Positions 504 through 13,901 of a DNA stretch of 20,774 bases are shown one piece after another (within the stretch, counting starts at the first letter, position 1; every line of letters begins with the position of its first letter). The DNA comes from an uncultured virus (IMG/VR IMGVR_UViG_2657245648_000004) (Duplodnaviria; Heunggongvirae; Uroviricota; Caudoviricetes): the IMG/VR virus record IMGVR_UViG_2657245648_000004, one strand, 5' to 3'. The translations under genes and the position numbers were made by a program. The notes beneath the pieces were generated by a model. That model was given only the letters and a program-made list of their open reading frames with translations, did not search any database and was not told the DNA's origin.

Positions 504-1606
504 AAGCCCAAATCCTTAAATATTTGTTCATCTAACATTCGAAGTTGGTCCAGTGTATAAAGTCTCCCATCTGGATCGAAGAACTTATCAAATTCAAATT
601 TCCCTTCTTTAAAGAGCTTGAAACGCTTAGGCCCTAACCATTCTTTCTGAAAGAAGTCATCTGTCTTCTTAAAGAACTCTTTAAATGTTGTATTTGCATC
701 CAGTTGGCCGATAAGTTGGCTTCTCTCGTCCTTAGGGATGTCTTTAACTCTTCGCTCATCCATCACAAATGGGCGCTCTCCCACTAATCGCCCATCTTTC
801 TCAACTGGTACTAAGATGCTGCGACAATTAGGATGTAACGGCGGTATCCGTTTTGCTGGGTCGTTTATTTCCCAAACGGTACCATCCAGTGAGGCGCAAA
901 GTTTTGATGTTCTACCATCCAACGTTGCAACCAATCGAACATATTCAAAGCCTATCTGGTTGAAGCTATTTAGATATGCTTGATTGGCTACATGACTTCT
1001 AACCGTTCTTACCGTCCGATCGATATCAGACTTACTGCTGGTTAAGATGCCATCTTCATAATTGAGGCGCTTAGTCCCACCAATGCGCTGAACAATTTCT
1101 TGATTCGTTTTACCTGAGCTAATCCCATCTCGAATAGCATATTCAACCTTTTGACGGGCGCTTTCAGCCAACTTAGTTAAAAGGTCATCGACCAAGGCTC
1201 CGCCAACTAAAGGAACCTTTTTAGCCGCCTTATAAAGCTTGTCACCATTAGGCTGTTTAATCTTTCCGCCGTACAACTTCGCTGTGTAATTAGCCTCATA
1301 TACCGCTAATGCTGTAGCTGAAACAGCAAATGCTTCAGGTAATGAAGTATTTATTACCGTAAACCACTGAGAGATTAGGTCCCGAATCTCTTTGAGGTTT
1401 GTAGTTGTATATTGACCACTAGCAAGTGCTGCTTTTTCAGAATCACTCAACTCATCTAACAAATCTCTAAGTTTTGCCAGCATTACAGCCGATTCATCAT
1501 GAAAAATCTTTAGTAAATCATTCACTGACTGAGAAGAAACCCGGTATAAATAAGCCTGGTGTTGTGTAAGCACTTCAATCAATGATTTTTCGATATTTGA
1601 AGCCAT
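500..1606 (-). CDS. Minor head/head morphogenesis protein (SPP1 gp7 / Mu gpF family)
   Basis: ATLDGRTSKLC...PPLHPNCRS motif; immediately downstream of portal. Confidence 0.93.
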   Translation of the reverse strand: MASNIEKSLIEVLTQHQAYLYRVSSQSVNDLLKIFHDESAVMLAKLRDLLDELSDSEKAALASGQYTTTNLKEIRDLISQWFTVINTSLPEAFAVSATALAVYEANYTAKLYGGKIKQPNGDKLYKAAKKVPLVGGALVDDLLTKLAESARQKVEYAIRDGISSGKTNQEIVQRIGGTKRLNYEDGILTSSKSDIDRTVRTVRSHVANQAYLNSFNQIGFEYVRLVATLDGRTSKLCASLDGTVWEINDPAKRIPPLHPNCRSILVPVEKDGRLVGERPFVMDERRVKDIPKDERSQLIGQLDANTTFKEFFKKTDDFFQKEWLGPKRFKLFKEGKFEFDKFFDPDGRLYTLDQLRMLDEQIFKDLGL

Positions 1607-1614
1607 TTAACACC

Positions 1615-2955
1615 TCATAGTGGACCGCTATCCTTCTCACTTTCTATCCGCTTTAACTCTTCCTGATAATCATGACCAGGTAATTTTCCTGTAGCGATAT
1701 ACTCCCAATATGTTTGGAATGAATTTTTTCCAGAAATAGCACCCTCATAAAGTTGCTTGGCCAAATTAATGTCATATTTCTGAACAATAAATTCAGGCTC
1801 TACAGTAAAGGTGTATTTTGAAGGATCTAGCTTTAGCCACTGTGCAGCATATTTAATAGCTTGCTCAATTGCTTCAGCTGCACACATTACAATGCTGTGC
1901 AAACTCGCATGCTGGTCATCCTGACGTGCACGGCGAGCTTCACCTGATTCTTGAGTATTGGTATCGATAACTTTTGCACCTGCTTCAAGTGCTGCGTTCT
2001 TTTGCGCTTCCATTTCTTTTTTTGTAAGCTCAATCCCATTACCCGAAATTTCCAAGTAACCACACTGAGATTCACCTGGTAGATCCCATACAGCCATAAC
2101 CCCAGTAACACTAATATCAGTATCATCATCTAAACCATTAATCCAAGGTTGAGGGTGTGCTGTATGGTGAAGTGACTGGAAGTAGTCAGCACTAAGCTGG
2201 TAATACTTAAGTGCAGCTTTGGCCATTGTTAGTAATGGTACTGTGCCAACTTGTGGGGAGTTATCGTTGGTACCGCAAAAGACAAATGGTGTAAAAGCAA
2301 GTTTATTACCGCCAAGATCTGGTGTTTTATCTTCTTCAGTAGAGCCATCAAACAAACGAACTGTTAAAGCACCTTCCCGCATAGCTAAAACGCGGTGGAC
2401 CGTCTTTGTATCGTGCCCGAACTCATCTTCGCTATTATCAAATTGCTCCTCAAGCACTAACAGTTTTAGATCCTTTCGACCACCAATGCTATTTTCCTTC
2501 CAGTTAATAATGGATAACGCATCATATAGAGCGAAGTATGGAACACCGTTAGCATCTACATCGACAAGCAAGCCACAGCGGCCATATTCGAGTAACTCTA
2601 GGCAAATACGAATAAAGAGCTGTTTTAATCCAAATCCGTCATTTGTAGCATTCTCTACCAAACCTTTTAGTAGAGAACTTTCAATTACGATGTTAGGTTC
2701 AAGCTTTGAAACCAAACCAATCATCGTACGCAGCGAGTCCTGAACCCATAATGGATACTGAGCACGGCTTAGATAAGCCTTGTAGATCTCCCCTGTAGTA
2801 TCACCCTGCTTTTCAGCCTCAATCATCCCTGCTGATTTAGGGAGATACTTGGTTTGTGCTTGTTTGATTTCCTCTTCACCAGCAACGGCATCGCGCATAA
2901 TCAACCAGGCTTTTTGCGCAGCAAGATACTGCGGATGTTTATCAGTAACTGCCAT
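1615..2955 (-). CDS. Portal protein (DUF4055-type)
   Basis: 446 aa between TerL and minor head; YLPK...Y..YL.RA N-terminus and Y..SADY...LH motif typical of DUF4055 portals. Confidence 0.88.
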   Translation of the reverse strand: MAVTDKHPQYLAAQKAWLIMRDAVAGEEEIKQAQTKYLPKSAGMIEAEKQGDTTGEIYKAYLSRAQYPLWVQDSLRTMIGLVSKLEPNIVIESSLLKGLVENATNDGFGLKQLFIRICLELLEYGRCGLLVDVDANGVPYFALYDALSIINWKENSIGGRKDLKLLVLEEQFDNSEDEFGHDTKTVHRVLAMREGALTVRLFDGSTEEDKTPDLGGNKLAFTPFVFCGTNDNSPQVGTVPLLTMAKAALKYYQLSADYFQSLHHTAHPQPWINGLDDDTDISVTGVMAVWDLPGESQCGYLEISGNGIELTKKEMEAQKNAALEAGAKVIDTNTQESGEARRARQDDQHASLHSIVMCAAEAIEQAIKYAAQWLKLDPSKYTFTVEPEFIVQKYDINLAKQLYEGAISGKNSFQTYWEYIATGKLPGHDYQEELKRIESEKDSGPL

Positions 2956-2966
2956 AAAAAAACACC

Positions 2967-2990
2967 AAAAAAAAGCACCTGAAGAGGTGC
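2967..2990 (-). terminator. Rho-independent terminator between terL and portal
   Basis: Minus strand GCACCU-CUUC-AGGUGC followed by U8. Confidence 0.75.
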
Positions 2991-2995
2991 GTTGT

Positions 2996-4288
2996 TTAAT
3001 GAGAATAACCAGCGATTGTGCGCCGTTTAAATACTTTCTGAATGATGATCGGGAACCGTTTAGCTATTGGGTAGCCACCAGCATCACCCACATGGTCCAA
3101 GCCAGCGCTTTTATCTGGCATTCCAAAATCATCATAAACTTGCTGTTCTAAAGTGGCCGTAAAGTTAGGACATTTGTTTGTGTTCACTTTTAGGTGTCGT
3201 TCACCGTCCGCATTAAGGATCTGTGCATTCACAGCATTAATTCGATCTTTAATGCTTGGGTTTACACCATTCACTTCAACCTTAAAACCATTTTTCTTTA
3301 AAATTGCATGATCAGATTCACTGAAGTTCTTTGATGAGGTCGCTTGACCTGAAGCATCAGGAACCACCGTAATATCATGCTCAGGAAAACGCTCTATAAT
3401 CAACTGACACATAGTCGGTGTATCCCTTACACCCACCAATTCATCTAAAGCTCTTGGTTTCCCTTCCCTTATGACATAAACAACTGCAGCCATTTTTAGA
3501 ACGTTAAAGTCCATTCCAATGAGTAACGGCTCACCTTCCTTAATTTCTTCGTCCGTGTGATTTTTAACTCGATCAAAGTCCGGGTAAACAGCGCCACTCG
3601 TTAAGTTGACAAATTGCCCTCTCAGATAAGCTGAAATCAATTGTGGAGGATATGACTCATAAAGGGATGAAATATAATCATCTGGAAGGTTAGCTTCATT
3701 GTCATAGGTTGAAGCCTGAATCATTCCATATAACTTTCGCTTAGCCGGTGTTTTATTTGCCTCTTTAACGAATTGTTCGTAGGTAAATTTAAAGCCTTCA
3801 GGTGTTGTGGCAACATCAATACCATTGAGCAAACCAGCTTGCTTATAACGCATACGTGCGATGATCTTACGCCAAGCCTGTTGTGCTTTGACTTTGGCCA
3901 TCACATCAAGCTCATCAATCAAAGCATGGCCAATTTTAAAACCTACAATGGTTGCTGGTTTCTCCATAGATCGACAGATGATTGTTGTTCGATACTGACG
4001 TCCATAATAGATATCCACCTCTTTATTGGTTTCATAGACCTTAGTTTTCAGTCCCCAATCGAAAGCAACTTCATCAATGGTTGGAAAGAAAATATCCCGA
4101 ATCTGCGGGTAAGTTGGAGCAAAATAACCTAAAGGCACCTTGGGAAACTCCCAAGCTTTATTACACAAACTAGAGCAACCGACCCAAGTCTTACCAGATC
4201 CAAAGCCCGCCACAAATGCACGAAACTTTTTCTCCATCTGTAAAAAATTAGCCTGAGGTACATTCAGCGTCGGATTGATGTTCGGCAT
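2996..4288 (-). CDS. terL: Terminase large subunit
   Basis: Walker A GFGSGKT, Walker B LIDE, nuclease GMDFN and DHVGDA. Start placed at MPNINP (4288); ORF track extends to 4303. Confidence 0.95.
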   Translation of the reverse strand: MPNINPTLNVPQANFLQMEKKFRAFVAGFGSGKTWVGCSSLCNKAWEFPKVPLGYFAPTYPQIRDIFFPTIDEVAFDWGLKTKVYETNKEVDIYYGRQYRTTIICRSMEKPATIVGFKIGHALIDELDVMAKVKAQQAWRKIIARMRYKQAGLLNGIDVATTPEGFKFTYEQFVKEANKTPAKRKLYGMIQASTYDNEANLPDDYISSLYESYPPQLISAYLRGQFVNLTSGAVYPDFDRVKNHTDEEIKEGEPLLIGMDFNVLKMAAVVYVIREGKPRALDELVGVRDTPTMCQLIIERFPEHDITVVPDASGQATSSKNFSESDHAILKKNGFKVEVNGVNPSIKDRINAVNAQILNADGERHLKVNTNKCPNFTATLEQQVYDDFGMPDKSAGLDHVGDAGGYPIAKRFPIIIQKVFKRRTIAGYSH

Positions 4289-4763
4289 CTTTTTTACTCG
4301 CATCTACAACTTGAATGGTCACCTTAACTGGTGTTGGATCATCTTCCCCTTCGCCCTCTCTCAACTTCTCAATTTCAAGCTGTTTCAACTCAAGAGTTAA
4401 AAGCATCAGGTCATGGCCTTGCATTTCTTCCCGGACTTGTTTAATAACTCCTTGCTTCATCAACCTGTTATTTTTCCAGCCCTCATAAATATTCTGGAGT
4501 TCCCTTAGGCGATAGGCTTTATTGGCCAGGGGAATGTCATATACATTCTTTTGGAAATCTGCCCTGGTCTTATTAAACAAAGTAATAAGTTTCTTACTTA
4601 AGTTTTTCCCCGTTGCTTTTGTTGGGTCATACGCCTCACATTGTCTTCGGTCAATTTCTATGCCAAATCTTTGTTTGACAGCATCCGCTACTTGTTGAGG
4701 GGTATCAAAGCAGGCAAGAGACTGAACTATAAAGATTTTCACAGGCTCTTTAAGCGCCGCCAT
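4248..4763 (-). CDS. terS: Terminase small subunit (DUF2280 family)
   Basis: MAALKEPVKIFIVQSLACFDTP..VADAVK and IPLANKAYRLREL motifs; overlaps terL; SD GGGGAG before ATG 4763. Confidence 0.85.
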   Translation of the reverse strand: MAALKEPVKIFIVQSLACFDTPQQVADAVKQRFGIEIDRRQCEAYDPTKATGKNLSKKLITLFNKTRADFQKNVYDIPLANKAYRLRELQNIYEGWKNNRLMKQGVIKQVREEMQGHDLMLLTLELKQLEIEKLREGEGEDDPTPVKVTIQVVDASKKDAEHQSDAECTSG

Positions 4764-4801
4764 ACTCCCCCCTTCGTCCAACTACGTCCAACAACATAGG
4801 C

Positions 4802-4823
4802 AAAAAAAAGAGCCGCTAGGCTC
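4802..4823 (-). terminator. Rho-independent terminator after the metallopeptidase gene
   Basis: Minus strand GAGCC-UAGC-GGCUC followed by U8. Confidence 0.75.
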
Positions 4824-5460
4824 AGTTGATTACACAATTTCCGCAGCATCTTGAAATATCTAAATCTGAAACAAACGGCGGATTCTTCGTAGCTTCAACT
4901 AAACGTTTTACGCTCTTACTTGGTCCCCACCGTTTGACAACACCAATGAACTCTTCGACATCGTGCCCAGCCAAATAGTGCTTAGGTAATCCTGTAGAAC
5001 TACTGAAGAGCATTTCTCCATCCTCATCTCGCTCTACGCCAATGTGATAAAGTTCATGCTCAATCAAAGCACAAAACTCGGTATCGTTTGCCTTATCGCA
5101 AAACCCACCATCGATGGTAATTAAATAGGTCGGTACAAATCCGAACCAATCTACCATTTGTTGTTCTTGTCTTGCTTTACGCCAGCCACCGACGTTAAAC
5201 ATAACTTTTTCACATTGCCCAAGTACCATTGCGTGTTTGCTTTTATATGCTGAAGAAGCCCAGGCAAAAGCTAAAAACTCATCTTGATCATGAAGTATTT
5301 CCGCAATGTGGTCATGATCAGGGTTGTGAAGTGGACCACCGATTGTAAGAAAGTTTGCTATAACCCATGCTCTTAATTCTGGTGCCGGTATTAAACGAAT
5401 AGCTTTCTCATTTTCCGATTGATCAAGAAAGTCCGTTGGAGGGAATGGTCTGATCTCCAT
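4822..5460 (-). CDS. Putative phage metallopeptidase
   Basis: HELYH (HEXXH) plus HDVEEF motif; this family commonly lies just upstream of terS. Confidence 0.85.
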   Translation of the reverse strand: MEIRPFPPTDFLDQSENEKAIRLIPAPELRAWVIANFLTIGGPLHNPDHDHIAEILHDQDEFLAFAWASSAYKSKHAMVLGQCEKVMFNVGGWRKARQEQQMVDWFGFVPTYLITIDGGFCDKANDTEFCALIEHELYHIGVERDEDGEMLFSSSTGLPKHYLAGHDVEEFIGVVKRWGPSKSVKRLVEATKNPPFVSDLDISRCCGNCVIN

Positions 5461-5890
5461 TAAATATTTGCCTCTTTAAATTTTCGAGCCACTGACTAGC
5501 AAAATGAGCTTGGATCTGCAAAGGGCCTGATTCATTGATTTTGAATCTAGCTGCAGATTCCAATCGAACAATCGTATACCCCATATCATGAGCTGCATCC
5601 TCACGATCTAAGTCATAAGAAATTTGTTTTCTTTTTCTTCCCGCTGACCAAGGGCCGCCAGCAATATCAACTAAAATTTTGTACTCAATTAAATAAAAAT
5701 CAAAGCGCCAATGTTTTGTTGTTTTAAACTGGAAGTTCTTTTCATATTTGATTTTTAAAATATCTAAAGCCTTTGTAAATTCTTCTTCTGCTTTTAAATA
5801 TTTCTCGGTGGCTTTAGGTAATGGCCGGCTTTTGGATTTCGTTTTAATCTCCTTTTTTCTTGTTAGGCCAAAGTAATCTTTAATGTCCAT
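5423..5890 (-). CDS. PD-(D/E)xK-like (DUF559/Vsr-like) nuclease-fold protein, possibly degenerate
   Basis: WRFDFYL...KILVDIAGGPW...GYTIVR pattern resembling DUF559-type RFDF..i.vE.dG. Confidence 0.6.
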   Translation of the reverse strand: MDIKDYFGLTRKKEIKTKSKSRPLPKATEKYLKAEEEFTKALDILKIKYEKNFQFKTTKHWRFDFYLIEYKILVDIAGGPWSAGRKRKQISYDLDREDAAHDMGYTIVRLESAARFKINESGPLQIQAHFASQWLENLKRQIFNGDQTIPSNGLS

Positions 5891-6053
5891 ATAAGGCGGT
5901 CCGTAAATTTTTGACCTGTGTTTTTAAACGAAGAATTATTCTATCGATAACTAACATCTCATCACGGCTTAGACCTGTACGCGACAAGTTTTGATAACGC
6001 TCCAATTCTAAGGAAACTTTATCAAGGTTTTTTTTACCTTCGTTTTTATCCAT
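5880..6053 (-). CDS. 57-aa hypothetical protein (MDKNEGKKNLDKVSLELERYQNLSRTGLSRDEMLVIDRIILRLKTQVKNLRTALYGH)
   Basis: Not in ORF track; fills the gap exactly and overlaps the next start; helical pattern. Confidence 0.7.
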   Translation of the reverse strand: MDKNEGKKNLDKVSLELERYQNLSRTGLSRDEMLVIDRIILRLKTQVKNLRTALYGH

Positions 6054-6060
6054 ATACTGC

Positions 6061-6258
6061 TCACTTATGTTTGTTTAGACGACGAGCAATAAGGCGTTTC
6101 TTCTTTTGGCTTAATTTATTGGGCTTGCTTTTCACACTATTTAATTTATTTACAAATGGTGAAGCTTCACCCATAGCAGCAGCCATAGCTGTTAAAGCAC
6201 TAAAATTAAAAGCCATTAATCCTGTTGCTGCAGCTAACATTAATCGACGCATACGCAT
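6061..6258 (-). CDS. Small hypothetical protein, Ala-rich hydrophobic N-half and basic C-tail
   Basis: SD GGAG before ATG; co-oriented with the late operon. Confidence 0.7.
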   Translation of the reverse strand: MRMRRLMLAAATGLMAFNFSALTAMAAAMGEASPFVNKLNSVKSKPNKLSQKKKRLIARRLNKHK

Positions 6259-6270
6259 TTATATGTCTCC

Positions 6271-6310
6271 AAAAGAAAAAGCCCCTCCAATAACCATATT
6301 TTAGAGGGGC
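6271..6310 (-). terminator. Rho-independent terminator downstream of the methylase
   Basis: Minus strand GCCCCUCUAA...UUGGAGGGGC followed by UUUUUCUUUU. Confidence 0.75.
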
Positions 6311-6358
6311 CGTTTGTGCCGTATTTATCACGGCAAACTTACAAACCAAATTATGAAA

Positions 6359-7129
6359 TTAGTAATTCATAATTATTAGTTCATTGCTTTTCTTACTCTT
6401 GGCTGCCGAATCACGACCAATAGAGTAATTAATTGAAGTAACTGCAAAATTAAAACCCTTAAAGATTTCACGAATCTTTTCATGGTCATTAATTGAAAGC
6501 ATTACCTTCCCTTTGGAGTTCTTCATTTTTTCAGAGAGCAATTCATATTGGTCAATAGGAAAATCCACGCCATAACCAGCAGTATCTAAATACGGCGGAT
6601 CCGCGTAAAAGAAAGTATGTTCCCGGTCATATTTATCAAAGCAAACATCCCATGACAAATTTTCAATATAGACCCCATTCAACCGCAAATGTGCTGCACT
6701 CAAATACTCCTCAATCCTTAAAAGATTTAAGGACCTGCCAGTTGTGTTATAACCAAAAGTTTGACCAGAAACTTTCCCACCAAATGCATGCTGCTGAAGA
6801 TAATAAAATCTTGCTGCACGCTGAATATCTGTAAGAGTGTCTGGTACTTTCAGTTTTTCCCATTCAAAAATCTGGCGGCTAGATATGCACCATTTAAATT
6901 GCCTTACAAACTCTTCTAAATGATTTTGAACAACTCGATAAAGGTTTACGAGCTCACCATTTAGATCATTTATAACTTCTGTCTTTGCCTGGTCTTCTCT
7001 TAAGAAAAATAGAGCAGCTCCACCGCAAAACAATTCCACATAACACGAATGCTCCGGGAATTTACTCAACAAATCCTTAGCTAAACGGGTTTTACCACCT
7101 TGCCATGGAATTATTGGCTTTGATTTCAT
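6359..7129 (-). CDS. DNA N6-adenine methyltransferase, D12/Dam family (alpha order); target unknown
   Basis: PWQGGK (motif X), ELFCGGAA (motif I), EVIND, DPPY (motif IV). Start at MKSKP (7129) with SD CAGGA. Confidence 0.93.
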   Translation of the reverse strand: MKSKPIIPWQGGKTRLAKDLLSKFPEHSCYVELFCGGAALFFLREDQAKTEVINDLNGELVNLYRVVQNHLEEFVRQFKWCISSRQIFEWEKLKVPDTLTDIQRAARFYYLQQHAFGGKVSGQTFGYNTTGRSLNLLRIEEYLSAAHLRLNGVYIENLSWDVCFDKYDREHTFFYADPPYLDTAGYGVDFPIDQYELLSEKMKNSKGKVMLSINDHEKIREIFKGFNFAVTSINYSIGRDSAAKSKKSNELIIMNY

Positions 7130-7160
7130 AAAAATTTTCCTGTGCAAAAGCTTACATTTT

Positions 7161-7169
7161 TGATAGCCT
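7161..7169 (+). promoter_or_regulatory. Candidate extended -10 promoter for an antisense RNA to the methylase leader
   Basis: TG-A-TAGCCT; TGTGCA lies 17 bp upstream of the -10. Confidence 0.4.
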
Positions 7170-7175
7170 TCACCG

Positions 7176-7313
7176 GTCGTGTGCACGATAGGCTGGGCTT
7201 GCTTTTGACAGGCTAAGGCTGTCAGGAGGTCGAGGTACTGTTACCGCAGTACTTCGTCCCCAGTTTTACTCGATACAAAAAACTCGGTCTCCATTTGGAA
7301 CCGAGTTTTTTTT
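7176..7313 (+). ncRNA. Candidate structured antisense sRNA in the methylase leader
   Basis: Hairpins 7177-7188, 7206-7224, 7231-7256; closing stem 7193-7197/7259-7263; G.U pairs favour the + strand; ends in hairpin plus U8. Confidence 0.5.
7277..7313. terminator. Bidirectional terminator hairpin, repeat copy 1
   Basis: A6-CTCGGTCTCCATTTGGAACCGAG-T8. Confidence 0.8.
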
Positions 7314-7315
7314 AT

Positions 7316-7546
7316 TTATTTATTTTCTAATGCAGTTACACGCGTCTGAACTGCATTTAAGCCATTATTCAAAGTAGTGATTGAACTCCCCTGGCTTGTA
7401 TTCACCCCTTCAACACTCGTAACTCGGGTTGTCAAAGCATTAACTGCTGAAGCATCAGCTTTGTTGCTAACAGTTCCTTGAAGAGCTGTTACTTTTGTTT
7501 TAAGAGCATTAATTTCATTCTCTAATTCTGCGTTTGTCATAGTCAT
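7316..7546 (-). CDS. 76-aa coiled-coil protein resembling tail-fibre/tail-tip coiled-coil repeats
   Basis: Heptads throughout; KADASAVNALTTRVTSVEG..TSQGSSITTL motif; SD AGGA. Confidence 0.75.
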   Translation of the reverse strand: MTMTNAELENEINALKTKVTALQGTVSNKADASAVNALTTRVTSVEGVNTSQGSSITTLNNGLNAVQTRVTALENK

Positions 7547-7577
7547 GCTGTTTTTCCTAGAAGCAATATTAAAAAAT

Positions 7578-7612
7578 AAAAAAACTCGGTCTCCGTATGG
7601 ATCCGAGCTTTT
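7578..7612. terminator. Terminator hairpin, repeat copy 2 (direct repeat of 7277-7313)
   Basis: A7-CTCGGTCTCCGTATGGATCCGAG-CTTTT; 4 mismatches to copy 1 over 33 nt. Confidence 0.7.
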
Positions 7613-7623
7613 ATGAGGGCAAT

Positions 7624-7653
7624 AAAAAAGCCCACCTATTTAGATGAGCTTTT
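7624..7653 (-). terminator. tR'-like terminator downstream of the late promoter
   Basis: Minus strand GCUCAUCUA-AA-UAGGUGGGC followed by U6. Confidence 0.75.
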
Positions 7654-7685
7654 AAATTCATTTTGGTCTAATTTATACTTCGACC

Positions 7686-7726
7686 AATTTAATAAAACTA
7701 TACCGTAATTAACGAAAAAGTGGAAA
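7686..7726 (-). promoter_or_regulatory. pR'-like late promoter with possible sigma-dependent pause element
   Basis: Minus strand TTTCCA-18-TATAGT (-10 at 7697-7702), then TAAATT near +1; directly after the Q-position gene. Confidence 0.5.
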
Positions 7727-8293
7727 CTAATTTCTTACCTCATTTAAAGTTTCTTCCTTATAACGCTTAGCAATTTTCGTAGCTTTTTTAATTTCTTCTT
7801 CTAATGCAGTTACCATTAATTTTTCGTACCGCTTCCATGTTTGACGATACACCTCAGGATTCATCTGAAAACTTCTAATGCCGGCATAAACTAAGCGCCC
7901 TGGATCTTTATGTCCGTTCTCCAGCTCTGGATCTAAAGCATAGTCAATAACAATACGGGCAATTAACCAGGCTAAATGATAAATAGCGATTCCTTCTGGC
8001 TCTCTTCTTTTATCCTTTTTGGCTCCATCCATCATGATTTTCGCCAGGTGATTCCTAACGTACTCATAATCCTGTTGTGATTTTCCTTCGGTCATAATGA
8101 CCATTGCAACCGATTTTGTAAGTTGATCACCCATAGCAGCTACCACCCCTAATTTATCTTGAAAGTCTATTGACCTCCCATCTGTACACCTAACATTCGC
8201 AGCCCCATAAGATGGTGATTTAAGACTTCCGCCACTTACGAACCATTCAAAAATTTGAAATCTTGACCAATCCATTACCACTAGAGACTGCAT
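7727..8293 (-). CDS. Probable late antitermination (Q-position) regulator
   Basis: Last early-right gene before a promoter and terminator stack. Function inferred from position; no Q motif recognised. Confidence 0.5.
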   Translation of the reverse strand: MQSLVVMDWSRFQIFEWFVSGGSLKSPSYGAANVRCTDGRSIDFQDKLGVVAAMGDQLTKSVAMVIMTEGKSQQDYEYVRNHLAKIMMDGAKKDKRREPEGIAIYHLAWLIARIVIDYALDPELENGHKDPGRLVYAGIRSFQMNPEVYRQTWKRYEKLMVTALEEEIKKATKIAKRYKEETLNEVRN

Positions 8294-8303
8294 ATTCACC
8301 ACC

Positions 8304-8588
8304 TTAATTATTCAAATGCTTTTGGAACTCACTGAAAAGTAGTTCCTCGATTGGTTCATCAACACTTAATTCATGATCAAGAGACCAAGGATTTATATAA
8401 ACTGTATCCCCACACATAACGGCGAGCTTTCCCTTAAACTGACAACCAGAAAATTCCTGACCGTATTTACCTGCATACAGCACAGCCAAAGCATCAAACT
8501 CATCTGTACTCAAAAATGCATTCATATTTATTTTCAATATGAAAAATTTCTTATCTACAGTCCAACCTACTGTTTCAATGTCGCTCAT
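8304..8588 (-). CDS. Hypothetical phage protein
   Basis: SD GAGGAG; co-oriented; 94 aa. Confidence 0.75.
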   Translation of the reverse strand: MSDIETVGWTVDKKFFILKINMNAFLSTDEFDALAVLYAGKYGQEFSGCQFKGKLAVMCGDTVYINPWSLDHELSVDEPIEELLFSEFQKHLNN

Positions 8589-8597
8589 AAACTCTCC

Positions 8598-9008
8598 TCA
8601 AACCTCTCTAACATCAATACCGTGCACCGTCTTCATCAGGTGTTTCTTGTTGCGATAACTTGGCAGCTTTCTAGTAGCAATAGATTTAACGTCCTCAACG
8701 ATGTATTCGCCATTGATGAGGTAATAAGTAAAATCCGCAAAATATCTAAGCGCTGGCTTTGTGCGTTTCTCCCCCTCTATCTTTGTTCTAGGTGCCAATT
8801 CAAATTTTGTATGATGCTCTAAACCAAAGATTTCACCGCGTTGTTGCAATGCTTTAAGTTCGATATACCGCTTGTATTCTTTGGTGCTATCAAAAGTCAT
8901 TCCATCTAATTGAACTTTCGAGGCATTAAACTTATTACGACCCTTCTTAGCTTTGTGGCCATTTGGAAACTTTGAGTGATAGTCAGCTAAGCTCATGGAT
9001 GTCATCAA
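8598..9008 (-). CDS. DUF1064 family PD-(D/E)xK nuclease (resolvase-like)
   Basis: NKFNA..VQLDGMTFDS.KE, YFADF.Y, VEDVK motifs. Confidence 0.9.
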   Translation of the reverse strand: MMTSMSLADYHSKFPNGHKAKKGRNKFNASKVQLDGMTFDSTKEYKRYIELKALQQRGEIFGLEHHTKFELAPRTKIEGEKRTKPALRYFADFTYYLINGEYIVEDVKSIATRKLPSYRNKKHLMKTVHGIDVREV

Positions 9009-9328
9009 GCACTTCCCTTATTTAAACGATCCAATTCATTAGCAAAATGGCTATACATCTGAGACTTTTCAAAATCTCTAATACGACCTAATTCGTGTGC
9101 TTCAGCTCTATATTTTTGAGCCAAATCACTTAATGAGTTTTTGAGCCTATTCAACTCCCCTTGCTGACCAATGCTCGTTTGAGCCATATCCACTAAAGCG
9201 CAGATATTCAAGGGATGAGCAACCACATCTACAAATGGTCCATAATGTCTATTACATGCATGAATCGCATCTTCAGCAGCTCTACGGATGAGCACCAACT
9301 GCCTTTGTGATAACTTGGGCTCACTCAT
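9005..9328 (-). CDS. Hypothetical phage protein
   Basis: Coupled to both neighbours by short overlaps. Confidence 0.75.
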   Translation of the reverse strand: MSEPKLSQRQLVLIRRAAEDAIHACNRHYGPFVDVVAHPLNICALVDMAQTSIGQQGELNRLKNSLSDLAQKYRAEAHELGRIRDFEKSQMYSHFANELDRLNKGSA

Positions 9329-9518
9329 GATTTACACCTGCCTCGCTCACTTCATCATTGCCTAGTAAAGGTGTCATGACACCATCAGGCCATTTAAAGC
9401 AAGTGATCCAACTTTTATCCCATTTTGCCCAAACACCATATTTACTTACTCGGTAATACACTCCAGCTTGCCAATGTGTTGCACCTTCTGGGCGCTGTTT
9501 TGATATTTCTTCAAGCAT
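9321..9518 (-). CDS. Hypothetical Trp-rich phage protein (PEGATHW module)
   Basis: Overlaps neighbours; PEGATHW motif is common in phage accessory proteins. Confidence 0.7.
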   Translation of the reverse strand: MLEEISKQRPEGATHWQAGVYYRVSKYGVWAKWDKSWITCFKWPDGVMTPLLGNDEVSEAGVNHE

Positions 9519-9927
9519 GGCTTGCTCCGTATATTGATTCGTAATTTGATAAATGACCTTCTACAAGCTTGATACGATCATGGAGATTGGGAAATTGAGG
9601 TCTCAGCTTTAACATTCCATACATACTTTCCACATGGCCATAAGCATCATCAATTTTTCCTGAGTACCATTCGTTTAAGTAATCAACTGATTCAACAAGG
9701 CGTTTTAGGTCTTTAATAATTACTGGTTCAAAGCCACGTTTTTTAAAATATTCCCCATTGTTTTCAGTCAAGTTCCAGCACTCATGTATTCCATTGTGGA
9801 ATTGAAAGTCAGGTTTTTCTCGAAAGTAATATCCACCCCAATAGCTTTCAGCATTACCTGGTGCAGAATTGATTATTTTGGTTGCTGCTTGAATCCCATT
9901 GTCACGAATAAACTTAGACGCTTGCAT
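9511..9927 (-). CDS. Hypothetical phage protein
   Basis: Start at MQASK (9927) with SD GAGGGG. Confidence 0.78.
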   Translation of the reverse strand: MQASKFIRDNGIQAATKIINSAPGNAESYWGGYYFREKPDFQFHNGIHECWNLTENNGEYFKKRGFEPVIIKDLKRLVESVDYLNEWYSGKIDDAYGHVESMYGMLKLRPQFPNLHDRIKLVEGHLSNYESIYGASHA

Positions 9928-10618
9928 GAATATCCCCTCCCTCACCTAACTGTCTAACTGCTTTAACGAAAGTGTTTAGCTTCAGATCACGTTGTAATTT
10001 TCGGATTTGATTTTCCTGCTCAGCATTCTTTTGCTCTAATCGTATGTAATTACGCTGCATGTAAAGGATCTGCTCTGGATCCTGTAGGCGAGCTAAAGCC
10101 ATGGTTAAAAGATTCATTTCGTTCTGAATGTTTCGTACTTCAAAAGCTAAAGACTTAAAGTTCTCTTCAACTTTTTCATGATCGAAATGACTTTTATTTT
10201 TATTGGACCATTTGCAGAAATATTTGATTTTTGGTGCAGATAAAACCCCTGCAATTACTTTACAAATTCCCTTTTCACTAACGTAAATAAGACCCCATTT
10301 TTCAGGCAGTTCCTCAGGCTTAATTAAACCAGTGGGGCAAATGTAATAACGGTATTTGCCCATACCCATTTCAGGATTTAAACGATGAGGTTTAGAACGG
10401 TCAGCCAAGAAATCTGCCCGACTTGTTTTCGCCTCGAGTAGAAAAGTTCCTATCCCATGCGAATGAATGCCATGACGTACACCAAAAACATCAGGGTTTT
10501 CGCCATAACAGGACGCTTCAATTATTGTGAAATGACAACCATGGCCATTAGCGGATTCAGGGCGTTTTAGAAATTTTGCGCCGATTTCACAAAGCTGGCG
10601 GTGTGTTAGTTTGCTCAT
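9914..10618 (-). CDS. PD-(D/E)xK nuclease-fold protein (MmcB-like)
   Basis: ENPDV...LLEAKTSRADFLAD..K and YYICP...PEELP..WGLI motifs; ATGA overlap with the upstream gene. Confidence 0.7.
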   Translation of the reverse strand: MSKLTHRQLCEIGAKFLKRPESANGHGCHFTIIEASCYGENPDVFGVRHGIHSHGIGTFLLEAKTSRADFLADRSKPHRLNPEMGMGKYRYYICPTGLIKPEELPEKWGLIYVSEKGICKVIAGVLSAPKIKYFCKWSNKNKSHFDHEKVEENFKSLAFEVRNIQNEMNLLTMALARLQDPEQILYMQRNYIRLEQKNAEQENQIRKLQRDLKLNTFVKAVRQLGEGGDIHASV

Positions 10619-11088
10619 TGGCCACACCCCTTAACTACTGCACATCCCAATAACAAACAAAGAAAGAAAAAAGTTTTATTGATTGCTTTTGATTCATCAT
10701 GTCCATCAATTTTTTGTGAGGCTTTGCTTTGCTGATCTTCAGGCTCTTGGATCTCAATATCAGAGACCAAACAGCAAAATGGTCGACCGTCATCTAAACG
10801 TCCAAACACCCGGTTATCTTCAAAAAGATCGACGGTGCCATTACCCACAAAGCGAATACTGTCCTGTCCCTTGTCTGGTACATGAGTGAAATCCACATGC
10901 ACACGTGTACCCTTGCTTAGTTCTGCTGCTTTAACTGTATTGCGTATTTTTTCGATGTCGTCTTCGCTTTTAACCAGGGCATAATGCTTATCAAAAAAAC
11001 TGTCGCGTTCGATGTACATACAAGAATCAAATTCCTGAAGCACCTCTTTTAATTTTTGAATTCCACTAGCTGTGTTCAAGGTAATCAT
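10615..11088 (-). CDS. Hypothetical phage protein with C-terminal hydrophobic segment
   Basis: ATGA coupling to rep; C-terminal FFFLCLLLGCAVV. Confidence 0.75.
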   Translation of the reverse strand: MITLNTASGIQKLKEVLQEFDSCMYIERDSFFDKHYALVKSEDDIEKIRNTVKAAELSKGTRVHVDFTHVPDKGQDSIRFVGNGTVDLFEDNRVFGRLDDGRPFCCLVSDIEIQEPEDQQSKASQKIDGHDESKAINKTFFFLCLLLGCAVVKGCGQ

Positions 11089-12191
11089 GCAGCCCCCTTG
11101 GTTGGGTTTTTAAAGCCCATTTCGATTAAATATGGAATGAACGGTTTTTGTTTCTCGGGATCCGCAAGTAAATTTGCAATACGCTTGCCCACGTCTTGCC
11201 AAGATTCACCTGGCTGCGTGTATTTTTCTGGCAAATTCGGATGCAAAGCTAAACGGCGAGCAAAAGCAAAAAGTTGTTTATCTGAAGCAAAAGTTATTAC
11301 TTCAGGCAATGTGTTTTCAGGAATGAATTGATGGTCATTTGAGTTTTTGTTTTCAAAAGTACGAGGTGCCGGTGTTTTCATCTTTGCGTATTTAGCGCGT
11401 GCTTTAAGCATCCACTCTGCAAAGAATTTAATCATGTCGCTATCAGAATGATTACGCCCCTCATTGAATCCCTTGAAAGCTTTCAGCTCTCTCTCAAACC
11501 AAGAGGCATTAAAAATCTCGTCGGTATTGATTGACGGATTGATAGAACAAATTTCTAATTTCAAATTTTCCAAAACAAACCATGTATTTTTTTTATTTTG
11601 ATAAGTTGGTTTTGATAGTGTGTTTTGTGTGTTAAAAATTTTAACTAGCAGGGGTAAAAAATTTTTACTAGCAGTAGTTAAATTTTTTAACTGGCTAGGG
11701 TTTTCAAGGTAGTTAAAATTTTTAACTAGCAAGCGTGATTTTTGAGGGAAATTTAAACAGAGATTTTTACTCTTTTTGCCCTTAGTTAATTTTTTGGGTG
11801 CAGGTTTCTGGTAGTTAAAATTTTTAACTAGCTGACCATTAAACAAACTAAAAGATTGAACAAGAACTGAGCTTTTATTTGGGAAATTAATGTACTCACC
11901 AACAAAATAATTATCAATTAATGAGTAAACATTCCCGTATACAGATTGGGCATGCTTTCTTACTAAACCAACTTTGACAAGCTCTTTTGTAAATCTAACA
12001 ACTGTAGGATGACTTTTTCCTGACAACTCCTCTAATTGAGTAATAGAAAGCGCATCACACTCTTTTGCCCAGCCACGTGTTTTACGGTTAATAATTAAAT
12101 AGATCTTCACTGATGCATCTGAGATTTTACTCATTGCCTCATCAACAAACGCATTTGCCACCTGAAATGAATTAGGGACATATTTACTCAT
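11085..12191 (-). CDS. Phage replication initiator (lambda O-like, N-terminal wHTH)
   Basis: RKTRGW.K..D.LS..QL.ELSG HTH; internal iteron cluster; position after the immunity region. Confidence 0.88.
   Translation of the reverse strand: MSKYVPNSFQVANAFVDEAMSKISDASVKIYLIINRKTRGWAKECDALSITQLEELSGKSHPTVVRFTKELVKVGLVRKHAQSVYGNVYSLIDNYFVGEYINFPNKSSVLVQSFSLFNGQLVKNFNYQKPAPKKLTKGKKSKNLCLNFPQKSRLLVKNFNYLENPSQLKNLTTASKNFLPLLVKIFNTQNTLSKPTYQNKKNTWFVLENLKLEICSINPSINTDEIFNASWFERELKAFKGFNEGRNHSDSDMIKFFAEWMLKARAKYAKMKTPAPRTFENKNSNDHQFIPENTLPEVITFASDKQLFAFARRLALHPNLPEKYTQPGESWQDVGKRIANLLADPEKQKPFIPYLIEMGFKNPTKGAA
11631..11832. repeat. Replication origin iterons: five 19-bp copies of GTTAAAATTTTTAACTAGC consensus
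   Basis: Copies at 11631, 11654, 11677, 11712 and 11814; palindromic core TAGTTAAAA-T-TTTTAACTA. Confidence 0.85.
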
Positions 12192-13042
12192 GCTGCAACC
12201 TCCAGCACTGGAATACGTTTTCTTTTAGAGCGCGTATTTGAAAACTTTGAAACAAGATCCTGGTATTCATACAAAAGTGAATAATTTGGATGTATACCGG
12301 TTAGATCTGGGAGAGTGCGCAAACTAGCATGCATTGAATACCCAGTGATTTCTTCAACTAGGCACATCAATGCATAAATTTGAGGATTTTTAACTGCACC
12401 GTGAACAAGGTCTTTTGGGCTACCCATAATGCATGTGATGCAACTTAATCGATCATTATCCTGATATGCCCAGTGAGGTATCTGACCAGCATTTTTAATG
12501 GTTTTAAAAACTTCACTGGTTGTTAATGAATGGATTGGCAAATAGTCATACCAGGTACGGCCTGCTTTACCATTTTCTGATGCAATCTTAAATATCTGCT
12601 GCTTCGCTCGGTTACTGGACTCTTCAGCTCTTAAGCCAACACAATTAACGATACGATCAAAGCCATTAGCTTTTGCATAACGGCGTATCTCTCGAGTAAT
12701 TGGACCTCGTTTTAAATCACTAGTGCATTGACGATACTTAGGTGAAGGAAATGAAGGAACTTCTGGCCGTTCTGAATAACGTTTTAGAACCATATCAAGA
12801 AAAGATTTTTTAGCTTTAGCTACGATAAAAGGAACCCCAGCTATTTCAGCTTGTTCACGGGCGAGTTCCAATGCACCAGGCCACTCCATAAAACCTAGAC
12901 TGGCATGCACTACCAGAATTTGCTCCTTAGGAACAAACTCCAGCAGCTTAATCATCATGGCTTGGCTATCCTTCCCGCCACTATGATTAACAACAAAAAG
13001 CGCTTTTAATTTAATTTCGTCAAATACTCTTAATGGAGTCAT
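12188..13042 (-). CDS. Phosphoadenosine phosphosulfate (PAPS) reductase family / PP-loop protein
   Basis: HSGGKDS PP-loop, R.CT..LK, GLRAEES..R, RLSCITC. Confidence 0.88.
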   Translation of the reverse strand: MTPLRVFDEIKLKALFVVNHSGGKDSQAMMIKLLEFVPKEQILVVHASLGFMEWPGALELAREQAEIAGVPFIVAKAKKSFLDMVLKRYSERPEVPSFPSPKYRQCTSDLKRGPITREIRRYAKANGFDRIVNCVGLRAEESSNRAKQQIFKIASENGKAGRTWYDYLPIHSLTTSEVFKTIKNAGQIPHWAYQDNDRLSCITCIMGSPKDLVHGAVKNPQIYALMCLVEEITGYSMHASLRTLPDLTGIHPNYSLLYEYQDLVSKFSNTRSKRKRIPVLEVAA

Positions 13043-13254
13043 GTGGTAACTCCTTCTTTGTATTTTCTGCGCTTATATCGCATGTCATAACAAGCTTTAC
13101 ATGCAGCACAAAAAGCCGGTGCACCATTTTTTTTGGTATGACCTTTACGCCAGAAGAACTCTTCATCCATTGGGTAATATTCTTTGCAATGAATACAAAG
13201 TTTTTCGGTACCTAATTCGGTCTGAATCGTTTTTGGCAAAGGAGCATTAGTCAT
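13039..13254 (-). CDS. Small zinc-finger protein
   Basis: CIHC...CKAC; ATGA coupling on both sides. Confidence 0.75.
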   Translation of the reverse strand: MTNAPLPKTIQTELGTEKLCIHCKEYYPMDEEFFWRKGHTKKNGAPAFCAACKACYDMRYKRRKYKEGVTT

Positions 13255-13577
13255 TTAGGCTCCCCTTCATCCAAAATCTGAATAAAGCTACCCAAGTATC
13301 GGATCCGCTTTGCTCGATAAAGGCTCGAGATGATTACCCCTGCGTGATAAAGATTAATCCCATGCACACCGTGTTGATTCACAAGAGCTTGCATAAATTC
13401 ATCACGTGTAACTGCCGCATTTTTTATATCGCGGTTTCCACGAGCTAAATTTTCCTGACGTTTTTTTAGCAACCCAGCCAAAGTTATTAAAGCTGGCTCA
13501 TGCCAACTTTGGTAACTCTGCTGACGTTTCTGCTCTAACAATTTGTCTTTATTCGACTGATTTGATAAATTAGACAT
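13251..13577 (-). CDS. Hypothetical phage protein (possible winged-helix)
   Basis: SD AAGGGA; coupled to the downstream gene. Confidence 0.75.
   Translation of the reverse strand: MSNLSNQSNKDKLLEQKRQQSYQSWHEPALITLAGLLKKRQENLARGNRDIKNAAVTRDEFMQALVNQHGVHGINLYHAGVIISSLYRAKRIRYLGSFIQILDEGEPK
13543..13571 (+). promoter_or_regulatory. Candidate antisense (pOOP-like) promoter
   Basis: TTGTCT-17bp-TAAATT with TG extension at 13563-13564. Confidence 0.5.
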
Positions 13578-13637
13578 GTTCTTTGATCCCTTCGATTAAT
13601 GAACACTTAAAGCTCGATCTCGCACATCGGGCTTTTT
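13578..13637 (+). ncRNA. Candidate OOP-like antisense RNA (~60 nt)
   Basis: Promoter above plus a + strand terminator AAAGCUCGAU-CUCGCAC-AUCGGGCUUU-UU (13609-13637). Confidence 0.5.
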
Positions 13638-13901
13638 ATTTGTTTGGAATACGGAAAAAATACTTTTAAAGAAACTCATGTATTCAATTGAATGCATTGT
13701 ATTCTTTGATTTTTTTAGCTCTTCAATAGATGATTGGCCCAAGTCAACTTCGATCTTTAGTTCAATGGCCTCTCTAATCCACTTAGCTCTAGCACCACCC
13801 GCCAATTCATCCACAAGTTCTTGCACTTCGATTGGCACTCTTGTCGACATTGGTGCTAATAATTTTTTGCTTGTCTTTGAATGCGTATTTAAGTTTTGCA
13901 T
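13596..13901 (-). CDS. CII-position regulator with ribbon-helix-helix-like segment
   Basis: MSTRVP.EVQELVDELA...RAKWIREAIE RHH-like pattern; SD AAGGA before ATG 13901. Confidence 0.65.
   Translation of the reverse strand: MQNLNTHSKTSKKLLAPMSTRVPIEVQELVDELAGGARAKWIREAIELKIEVDLGQSSIEELKKSKNTMHSIEYMSFFKSIFSVFQTNKKPDVRDRALSVH

What the first reader, a model, noticed from the sequence alone, without database searches (positions are those of the whole stretch)
7141..7313. Structured cis-antisense RNA candidate in the leader of the adenine methyltransferase
Seen: the ~150-nt methylase leader is GC-richer than its flanks and folds into a multi-stem structure on the + strand, antisense to the gene. 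Elements are TCGT-gtgc-ACGA (7177-7188), TGACAG-7-CTGTCA (7206-7224) and CGAGGTACTG-TTACCG-CAGTACTTCG (7231-7256), with the last two enclosed by CTGGG/CCCAG (7193-7197/7259-7263). G7234.U7253 and G7192.U7264 pair only in the + RNA. An extended -10 TGATAGCCT (7161) precedes it and a hairpin with U8 (7283-7313) ends it. Inference: a lysogen-expressed sRNA that silences a potentially toxic late-expressed methylase, an RNA-only analogue of Com/mom control in phage Mu. No Com CxxC ORF is present. The stem-loop recalls sRNA-Xcc1/SymR-like elements (recollection, not searched).
Basis: partly seen in the sequence, partly recalled or inferred. Interest (0 to 1): 0.75.

Follow-up and report, generated by a model that had tools for sequence, protein, structure and literature searches.

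The report
Structured RNA gene beside phage methylase
Just upstream of a phage DNA-methylase gene, on the opposite strand, lies a small, well-folded RNA gene that turns out to belong to a widespread, apparently undescribed RNA family that accompanies the Com/DNA-modification modules of many phages and probably helps keep those modules switched off until late in infection.

Summary
The fold is a plus-strand RNA. On 30 distinct relatives, 973 of 985 pair cells are standard on the plus strand and 818 of 985 on the complement. On 42 wider relatives, 32 of 33 pairs show compensatory changes and 0 of 500 shuffles reach this. No Rfam family matches.

The window has no Com ORF. In relatives, however, the same RNA gene sits next to a Com zinc-ribbon gene followed by a DNA methyltransferase. 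Of 80 com loci in IMG/VR, 45 carry the RNA on the strand opposite com, with its 5' edge 24-53 nt upstream. Hosts include Acinetobacter, Moraxella, Pseudomonas and Burkholderia phages. Mu itself has none. So the RNA normally accompanies Com. It is not an RNA-only substitute, and the window phage is a com-less derivative.

The most likely function is a divergent, momP2-like promoter that makes a stable RNA complementary to the leader of read-through late transcripts. This would act as a brake on the modification module. That function is inferred. Expression could not be shown, because the RNA-seq contigs carry no strand and the raw-read runs lack the phage.

The parts
7142..7147 (+). -35-like hexamer GTGCAA of the RNA's promoter. 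It lies inside the conserved block CCTGTGCAAAAGC (7139-7151), which on the minus strand also holds the methylase Shine-Dalgarno (AGGA, 7141-7138).
   Evidence: The block is invariant in 22 of 23 distinct Acinetobacter variants, and the 10 nt after it vary freely. It reads TTGCAA in L168, L204, L206 and L207, 16-18 nt before the -10.
7161..7169 (+). Extended -10, TG-n-TAGCCT. The predicted start of the RNA is near G7176.
   Evidence: TGnTAGCCT is kept while n varies (A, T, G) and the 6 nt after it vary. Distant relatives keep TGnTAnnnT at the same distance from P1: TGATAGAAT, TGCTAAAAT, TGCTATCCT, TGATACCCT and TGCTAGGAT. No experimental TSS.
7177..7188 (+). P1, the 5'-terminal hairpin TCGT-GTGC-ACGA (R7176.T7189 can extend it). 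In most relatives it is a perfect DNA palindrome.
   Evidence: Invariant among close relatives. Compensatory changes appear in all 5 pairs across the wide alignment. Of 26 distinct P1 variants, 20 have a self-complementary central 4 nt.
7190..7197 (+). P0 5' strand, the closing helix of the three-way junction. It is followed by the conserved junction CTTG (7198-7201).
   Evidence: It pairs with 7259-7266. G7192.U7264 is G.U in 23 of 23. Five of 6 pairs covary in A6.
7202..7228 (+). P2 hairpin: 7202-7211 pairs with 7219-7228, with a variable 7-nt loop.
   Evidence: G.U and U.G pairs at 7204/7226, 7205/7225 and 7208/7222 are possible only on the plus strand. All 10 pairs covary in A6.
7229..7258 (+). 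P3 hairpin: 7229/7258 and 7231-7241 with 7246-7256. The apical U-G-U[UNNN]G-C-A is conserved.
   Evidence: Eight of 11 pairs have both-side changes already among Acinetobacter variants, and 12 of 12 do in A6.
7259..7266 (+). P0 3' strand.
7277..7313 (.). T2, a two-way intrinsic terminator: A6, stem CTCGGTC/ACCGAG, then T8. It would end the plus-strand RNA at about 7306-7313, giving an RNA of about 130-138 nt. It also ends the 76-aa gene on the minus strand.
   Evidence: Folds: -17.9 kcal/mol (plus strand, z -7.1) and -18.4 kcal/mol (minus strand, z -5.7). By eye, 29 of 32 distinct 3' regions have a hairpin plus T run on the plus side. In L194 the A run on the left is missing, so there it works only for the plus strand.
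6359..7129 (-). D12-class N6-adenine DNA methyltransferase (256 aa). It is the first gene after the module and sits where relatives have com.
   Evidence: Pfam PF02086, 102.9 bits. Same start context as com in relatives.
7201..7212 (-). Candidate anti-Shine-Dalgarno of the minus-strand leader (CCUGUCAAAAGC). It can pair with GCUUUUGCACAGG (7151-7139).
   Evidence: This pairing is in the minimum-energy fold of the minus-strand leader in the window and in the four main-family relatives whose folds were printed (L136, L154, L168, L194). It is not kept in L204 or L206. Prediction only.

Best explanation
Positions 7176-7313 are a small RNA gene on the plus strand. It has a promoter (-35-like GTGCAA, extended -10 TGATAGCCT), a 5' hairpin P1, a three-way junction (P0 closing P2 and P3) and an intrinsic terminator.

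It belongs to a wide RNA family, not in Rfam, that lies head-to-head with com genes of phage DNA-modification modules (Com zinc ribbon plus a DNA methyltransferase). In this phage com has been lost, and a Dam-type methylase uses com's ribosome-binding site.

Shown: the structure, the strand, the conserved promoter-like and terminator signals, and the linkage to com and methyltransferase genes.

Inferred mechanism:
- The promoter is the counterpart of Mu's divergent overlapping promoter momP2. RNA polymerase bound there covers the start region of com or dam.
- The stable RNA it makes is fully complementary to about 100 nt of leader on any transcript that reads through terminators T1 and T2 into the modification gene.
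- Together these set a threshold. Leaky read-through in a lysogen or early in infection is blocked or paired and destroyed. Heavy antiterminated late transcription overruns the promoter and titrates the RNA.
For: - Structure and strand. On A6, 1306 of 1348 cells are standard on the RNA strand against 1107 of 1348 on the complement, with 214 G.U cells against 15 A.C.
- Promoter footprint: conserved -35 and -10 blocks separated by freely varying spacers, kept in distant relatives.
- Terminator with a plus-side T run.
- Position: all 45 hits in 80 com loci are on the strand opposite com, with the 5' edge 24-53 nt (median 42) before its start.
- Com identity: 9 of 9 tested small ORFs exceed the PF10122 cut-off.
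- Downstream genes are D12 or C5 methyltransferases in most loci.
- Late-operon context. The module follows a minus-strand promoter-like site (7726..7697). It also follows a minus-strand-only terminator T1. The next gene upstream is a 191-aa protein with a weak lead to antiterminator Q. L152 has a phrog_79 Q-like gene upstream.
- No conserved minus-strand promoter was seen, by eye in the sequences and by the scan, between T2 and the methylase.
- Mu precedent: mom expression is toxic and multiply restrained, and RNA polymerase sits at the divergent overlapping momP2 when activator C is absent (PMC3378877, introduction passage).
Against: - There is no direct evidence of transcription. The two RNA-library contigs that cover 6900-7322 are 1485 and 3614 nt long and carry no strand. 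The two raw-read runs had 0 reads on the stretch.
- The element is absent from the ATCC 17978 TSS and sRNA tables, so that data set is no test.
- The RNA does not overlap the ribosome-binding site. Repression would have to be indirect, by cleavage of the duplex, promoter occupancy or collision.
- Pairing of the RNA with the leader would free the Shine-Dalgarno from the predicted anti-SD helix. That would activate and not repress.
- The conserved junction and P3 apical loop, and the palindromic centre of P1, are more than a pure antisense RNA needs.
- In Mu-like and P2-like relatives, com may have its own promoter inside the RNA gene, so the overlap there is unproven.
Confidence: 0.5

Rival explanations
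1. The RNA is real but works through a protein or as an activator. One version: it is a second target, decoy or cofactor of Com or of another RNA-binding factor. Another version: it pairs with the leader and opens the anti-SD/SD helix so that com or dam can be translated.
For: - Tight linkage to com in 45 of 80 com loci.
- Conserved junction CUU and P3 apex U-G-U[UNNN]G-C-A across GC-poor and GC-rich relatives.
- Com is known to bind an RNA hairpin next to a translation-inhibition structure (PMC6483171, abstract and introduction).
- The predicted minus-strand leader sequesters the SD with the complement of P2.
Against: - The window clade keeps the RNA almost unchanged without any com gene.
- The anti-SD pairing is not kept in L204 or L206.
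Confidence: 0.2
2. The function lies at the DNA level. The conserved promoter and the P1 palindrome form a switch, with competition or occlusion as at Mu momP1/momP2 and an operator for an activator, a repressor or a methylation-sensitive factor. The transcript itself is a by-product.
For: - P1 is a DNA palindrome through its centre in 20 of 26 variants, where chance is about 1 in 16. It lies at +1..+14 of the promoter.
- The promoter overlaps the com/dam start region in all lineages.
- Mu has such a divergent promoter.
Against: A by-product would not keep P0, P2 and P3 by compensatory changes (32 of 33 pairs). It would not show a 214:15 excess of G.U over A.C. It would not keep its own terminator.
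Confidence: 0.12
3. The functional RNA is the minus-strand 5' leader of the methylase/com mRNA: a cis-regulatory leader, a translation-inhibition structure or an antitermination element.
For: The leader is transcribed in any read-through model. An anti-SD/SD helix is predicted in the window and in the four main-family relatives whose folds were printed.
Against: - The minus strand folds no better than shuffles (z -0.87 and -1.88).
- 155 to 199 pair cells become A.C mismatches on that strand.
- Substitutions in P2 are compensated within P2 on the plus strand and not with the SD region (L203).
Confidence: 0.06
4. It is a trans-acting phage sRNA with host or phage targets elsewhere, for example anti-defence or superinfection exclusion of relatives. 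Its place next to com would be only a convenient insertion site.
For: It is an independent gene with its own promoter and terminator. The 5' third is invariant among phages with different neighbours.
Against: - No translation-start region of the 173 ORFs of the provirus pairs better than shuffled RNAs do. The best non-self duplex is -44.2 kcal/mol, against -39 to -48.1 for 30 shuffles.
- The fixed position and strand next to com in very different phage types argue for a local role.
- Host targets were not searched.
Confidence: 0.08

Closest known systems
Bacteriophage Mu com-mom operon with its divergent overlapping promoter momP2
   Same: A Com zinc-ribbon gene followed by, and overlapping, a DNA-modification gene. 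Expression is harmful if premature and restrained at several levels. A promoter points away from com and overlaps its control region (PMC3378877 passage; PMC6483171 abstract and introduction).
   Different: No structured RNA product of momP2 was named in the passages and sections I read. Mu's gin-com spacer is only 94 bp and gives no match to either RNA model. The window phage has no com and carries a Dam-type methylase, not mom.
com plus DNA adenine methyltransferase cassettes of Mu-like prophages (FluMu hin1523, Pnm1 nma1821, Hia5; phage B3 ORF47/48)
   Same: A Com homologue with a methyltransferase in mom's place (PMC3299994 passages). The 278-288-aa D12-type enzymes after com in L204-L208 look like this kind. 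Pseudomonas phage Bise carries the RNA. That Bise is B3-like is my recollection, from no call.
   Different: The passages of that paper that I read mention possible Com binding sites at the 5' end of hin1523 but no RNA gene upstream of com. I did not test FluMu or Pnm1 themselves.
Cis-encoded antisense RNAs of temperate phages and transposons (P22 sar, lambda OOP and anti-Q RNA, IS10 RNA-OUT). Named from my own knowledge.
   Same: Small, stable, stem-loop RNAs with their own promoter and terminator. They are read opposite to a gene whose untimely expression is harmful.
   Different: Those overlap the coding region or ribosome-binding site of their target, and they are one or two hairpins. This RNA lies wholly upstream of the RBS, has a three-way junction with a conserved junction and apex, and is conserved across unrelated phage types.
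   Same: A cis-encoded RNA at the 5' end of a harmful gene. One GC-rich relative (L268) gives a weak match.
   Different: 27.5 bits against a gathering score of 61, E 0.09. No match in the window at E<=10. Not a member.

Membership tests
   Zero matches at gathering in the whole window and in six relatives' loci. At E<=10 in 6900-7800 nothing overlaps 7141-7282. The only related hit is SymR in L268, 27.5 bits against 61.
Cis-encoded antisense sRNA | Own promoter on the strand opposite the target gene | tested here: inconclusive
   A conserved -35 / TGnTAnnnT footprint with variable spacers is present in all lineages. No TSS data.
Cis-encoded antisense sRNA | Defined 3' end (terminator) | tested here: met
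   T2 hairpin plus T8. A hairpin plus T run is present in 29 of 32 distinct 3' regions by eye. None is obvious in L203-L205.
Cis-encoded antisense sRNA | Overlap with a transcript of the target gene, and an effect on it | not testable with these tools
   Overlap requires read-through from the upstream late promoter. No strand-resolved reads were available.
Structured non-coding RNA (conserved secondary structure) | Compensatory base changes that keep the helices, on one strand | tested here: met
   (MAFFT alignment, structure found independently by RNAalifold). (model-fitted alignments: 17 of 33 and 32 of 33 pairs, 0 of 500 shuffles). Strand counts.
Mu-type Com/modification module | Com zinc-ribbon ORF (Pfam PF10122) | tested here: not met
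   None in the window or the provirus. Present next to the RNA in relatives: 9 of 9 tested ORFs score 26.5-56.2 bits against a cut-off of 22.9.
Mu-type Com/modification module | DNA-modification gene directly downstream | tested here: met
   D12 methyltransferase at 6359-7129. D12 or C5 methyltransferases follow com in L154, L169, L200, L205-L208 and L210. Other genes follow in L152, L194, L199 and L209.
Mu-type Com/modification module | Translation-inhibition structure over the start signals | tested here: inconclusive
   A predicted anti-SD/SD helix is in the minimum-energy folds of the window and of the four main-family relatives whose folds were printed. It is not conserved in L204 or L206.
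Mu-type Com/modification module | Activator (C) site and divergent promoter momP2 | tested here: inconclusive
   A divergent promoter-like element is present. The P1 palindrome at its +1 could be a protein site. No activator was identified.

The most novel reading that the evidence does not exclude
The RNA is an unrecognised third component of Com/DNA-modification modules across many phage families, and together with its DNA it forms an epigenetic switch. In this reading the palindrome at its +1, whose centre is a restriction-site-like tetranucleotide in 20 of 26 variants, is bound or methylated by a module-encoded or late phage protein. That flips RNA polymerase between the RNA's promoter and the com/methylase direction. 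The folded RNA, with its conserved junction and apex, binds Com or the leader to lock the module off. A prophage copy could also silence the homologous leader of incoming relatives.
Probability: 0.12. Interest if true: 0.85.

Novelty: new variant of a known kind. Interest (0 to 1): 0.72.

Why it matters
Com/mom of phage Mu is a textbook case of layered control of a toxic DNA-modification function. Com-plus-methyltransferase cassettes are common in phages and prophages of Acinetobacter, Moraxella, Pseudomonas and Burkholderia.

A covarying, promoter-equipped RNA gene at a fixed position in more than half of the com loci sampled would add an RNA layer to this paradigm. It would give Mu's puzzling divergent promoter a product in other phages. 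It would also supply a new RNA family for annotation, since at least one phage record calls a protein gene across it (PQ859669).

Timing of phage methylase expression decides whether progeny DNA escapes host restriction, so the element bears on host range in ordinary phage-bacterium experiments.

Tried and rejected
- tRNA/tmRNA scan of the window: 0 genes.
- Rfam: nothing at gathering. Permissive scans gave only terminator-driven weak hits on the minus strand at 7273-7404 and one sub-threshold SymR hit in a relative.
- Small peptide: the only plus-strand ORF of at least 20 aa touching the region is 24 aa (7142-7216). The 52-aa plus-strand CDS annotated in PQ859669 has no equivalent in the window, so I rejected a coding reading.
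Contigs of runs X2 and X6 cover 6900-7322 of a close variant inside contigs of 1485 and 3614 nt. They give no strand and no ends, and DNA carry-over is not excluded. Raw-read runs X21 and X24 laid 0 reads. This is no test either way.
- ATCC 17978 TSS and sRNA supplement (PMC6182133): the P1 motif and the -35 block are absent, and the two -10-motif matches are unrelated loci. The AB5075 supplement could not be read.
- Trans targets among 173 start regions of the provirus: none better than shuffles.
- Mu itself and Ralstonia phage RS-AB1: no match with either model.
- Thirty-five of 80 com loci have no hit. Three weak same-strand hits (19 bits, E 0.023) at another position I judged to be chance.
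- A link between the central tetranucleotide of P1 and the class of methyltransferase: no simple rule in the Acinetobacter loci. Left unexplained.
- The 191-aa upstream protein as antiterminator Q: only a 25-residue BLASTP match to the Q-like protein of L152 (E 0.002) and an Atlas lead. I kept it as a lead and did not fold it.
- Literature searches that found no description of an RNA gene upstream of com. These cover only open PMC and bioRxiv full text, so older Mu papers in subscription journals were not searched.

Full report
**Setting.** The window is part of a 53,290-bp Acinetobacter provirus. Nine isolated Acinetobacter phages (AM106, phi1_092021, Acba_3 and others) carry the same 191 bases at 88-91% identity.

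All genes from 273 to 14270 lie on the minus strand. In order of transcription they are:
- a cro-like gene;
- a replication module with a RepO-like gene, a PAPS-reductase-like gene and DUF1064;
- a 191-aa protein (7727-8302);
- a 76-aa coiled-coil gene (7316-7546);
- a D12-class adenine methyltransferase (6359-7129, real start ATG 7129);
- small ORFs, a metallopeptidase, small and large terminase, and portal.

A CI-like repressor lies on the plus strand from 14322. The finding therefore sits at the head of the late genes.

**Observation.** The region is GC-richer than its flanks (0.53 against 0.34-0.41) and its GC skew is reversed. The plus strand of 7189-7267 folds to -38.2 kcal/mol (z -4.4, 0 of 200 shuffles as good). 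The minus strand folds to -23.5 kcal/mol (z -1.9). The hairpin at 7283-7313 is a two-way terminator, with A6 on its left and T8 on its right.

**Comparative test among close relatives.**
- Upstream regions of homologous methylases and two motif scans of IMG/VR gave 52 loci with the element. Eight of the 60 loci were chance matches in coding DNA, and I dropped them.
- Twenty-three distinct variants were aligned with MAFFT (A2). RNAalifold found P1, a closing helix P0, P2 and P3 without my input.
- Counting my own structure gave 99.3% of cells paired and 9 pairs changed on both sides (8 of them in P3). None of 500 shuffles reached these values, and slid controls gave 37-50% paired.
- The strand is clear. 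In A2, 738 of 759 cells are standard pairs on the plus strand and 640 of 759 on the complement. G7192.U7264 and U7204.G7226 are wobble pairs in all 23 variants.

**Promoter and terminator.**
- The alignment shows a typical promoter footprint. Reading left to right it has CCTGTGCAAAAGC, 10 variable nt, TGnTAGCCTT with n variable, 6 variable nt, and then P1.
- Distant relatives keep TKGCAA, a spacer of 16-18 nt, and TGnTAnnnT at the same distance from P1.
- A hairpin followed by a T run on the plus side follows the RNA in 29 of 32 distinct 3' regions, judged by eye.
- In L194 the left A run is missing, so there the terminator serves only the plus strand.
- The other terminator, T1 (7624-7653), forms only on the minus strand.

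**Wider family.**
- A covariance model (R1) found the RNA in 5 of 151 sampled genomes of the genus and in 6 of 151 of the family. These included divergent copies scoring 39-78 bits that keep all four helices through compensatory changes.
- On 30 distinct sequences, 17 of 33 pairs covary. The strand count is 973 of 985 against 818 of 985, with 157 G.U cells against 2 A.C.
- These last alignments are fitted to the model, which favours the structure. The MAFFT-based result does not have that bias.

**The key finding: Com.** I looked at the gene that starts next to the RNA on the other strand in 61 loci.
- It is the D12 methylase in 46 loci, the window included.
- In 13 loci it is a 48-76-aa CxxC...CxxC protein. 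Four of these were tested. Five more, from the family-level genomes L206-L210, were tested. All nine exceed the Pfam cut-off for Zn_ribbon_Com, the Mu Com family.
- Two loci have no ORF there: one lies at a contig end and one is a decayed second copy.
- Behind com lie C5 or D12 methyltransferases in most cases and other genes in a few.
- The ribosome-binding block is the same whether com or dam follows. The window type is therefore best read as a module that lost com.

**Reversing the search.**
- A Com alignment (A5) fetched the 80 best com loci of IMG/VR. R1 without filters hit 29 of the first 40 and 11 of the second 40.
- A broader model (R2, built from A6) added 5 of the 40 misses.
- All 45 hits lie on the strand opposite com, and their 5' edge is 24-53 nt (median 42) before the com match.
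- Named phages with the RNA are Moraxella phage Mcat3 (62.5 bits), Pseudomonas phage Bise (29.3 bits) and Burkholderia phage KS5 (52.9 bits with R2).
- Mu and Ralstonia RS-AB1 have none.
- On the 42 distinct rows of the wide alignment, 96.9% of cells pair, against 65.3% in shuffles. Thirty-two of 33 pairs show both-side changes.
- On the same alignment the strand count is 1306 of 1348 against 1107 of 1348, with 214 G.U against 15 A.C.

**Is it known?** No Rfam family reaches its threshold in the window or in relatives. My six literature searches found no description of an RNA gene upstream of com. These searches cover open full text only. What I read:
- Com binds a hairpin next to a translation-inhibition structure (PMC6483171, abstract and introduction).
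- Com homologues pair with adenine methyltransferases in place of mom in FluMu, Pnm1 and B3 (PMC3299994, passages).
- RNA polymerase is recruited to a divergent overlapping promoter, momP2, when activator C is absent (PMC3378877, one introduction passage).
- The KS5 genome paper lists Com and the methylase but, in the passages shown, no RNA (PMC3091744).

**Mechanism.**

*Shown:* a structured plus-strand RNA with promoter-like and terminator signals, at a fixed place beside com or dam.

*Inferred:* the promoter is the counterpart of momP2.
- RNA polymerase at this promoter would cover 7121-7196, which includes the start region of dam. This extent is my estimate from a typical promoter footprint of -55 to +20, and comes from no call.
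- The RNA is complementary to the leader of any transcript that enters dam from upstream.
- Such transcripts must pass T1 and T2. These follow a promoter-like site (7726..7697) and the 191-aa gene.
- I saw no conserved minus-strand promoter between T2 and dam.
- I therefore favour a threshold brake. Leak is blocked or paired and degraded, and full late transcription overruns the promoter.

*Against a simple brake:*
- The RNA does not cover the ribosome-binding site.
- The minus-strand leader is predicted to hide its own Shine-Dalgarno with the complement of P2. Pairing with the RNA could therefore activate.
- P1 is a DNA palindrome through its centre in 20 of 26 variants.
- The junction and the P3 apex are conserved beyond what antisense pairing needs.

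These points keep a protein-linked or switch-like role open.

**Expression.** Expression could not be tested.

**Verdict.** The reading 'RNA-only analogue of Com control' must be changed to 'the RNA partner of Com modules, here left without Com'. It is a new RNA family that adds a layer to a known kind of control. The regulatory direction remains to be shown.

Noticed in passing
window 7316-7546 (-), with near-duplicate hairpins at 7283-7305 and 7586-7608: A 76-aa coiled-coil gene (PHROG tail-protein repeat) lies between two similar terminators. It is absent from Acba_23 and several IMG/VR relatives, where the RNA gene abuts the second terminator directly. It looks like a deletable insert. Two earlier notes of this scan on other genomes say the same.
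   Followed up: partly
window 7624-7726 (-): After the 191-aa gene come a promoter-like site (TTTCCA-18-TATAGT), a small hairpin and a minus-strand-only terminator T1. The layout recalls a lambdoid late promoter with its short terminated transcript. MicC-like and other sRNA models hit it weakly because of the terminator.
   Followed up: partly
window 7727-8302 (-): The 191-aa protein (phrog_5656, unknown function) stands where L152 has a phrog_79 Q-like antiterminator. It shares only an N-terminal DWS+F..+WF stretch with that protein. The Atlas gives a lead to PF06323 (17% of members of one cluster set, score 0.94).
   Followed up: partly
window 7177-7188 and relatives (alignment A6): The 5' hairpin is a DNA palindrome including its loop. 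The central 4 nt are self-complementary in 20 of 26 variants (GATC, GTAC, TCGA, ACGT, CGCG, TGCA, AGCT, CCGG). Unexplained.
   Followed up: partly
L201 (A. rudis genome, 4 kb from L200): A second, decayed copy of the RNA (45.7 bits, several broken pairs) has no com or methylase beside it. It lies on the same contig and strand as an intact RNA-com-Dam module.
   Followed up: no
L005 (PQ859669) 2550-2708 (+) and 2686-2916 (-): The deposited annotation calls a 52-aa 'hypothetical protein' across the RNA gene. It labels the 76-aa coiled-coil gene 'glycerophosphoryl diester phosphodiesterase' and the metallopeptidase 'transposase'. These are probably annotation artefacts.
   Followed up: no
L214 (Pseudomonas phage Bise) 266-1297: A reverse-transcriptase family gene ends 38 nt from the 3' end of the RNA match in Bise. 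KS5 also carries a reverse transcriptase elsewhere in its genome (PMC3091744 abstract). Probably coincidence.
   Followed up: no
window 12188-13042 (-): A PAPS-reductase-domain protein (36.3 bits) lies in the replication module next to the RepO-like gene. It may be a DNA-modification or nucleotide-metabolism function.
   Followed up: no
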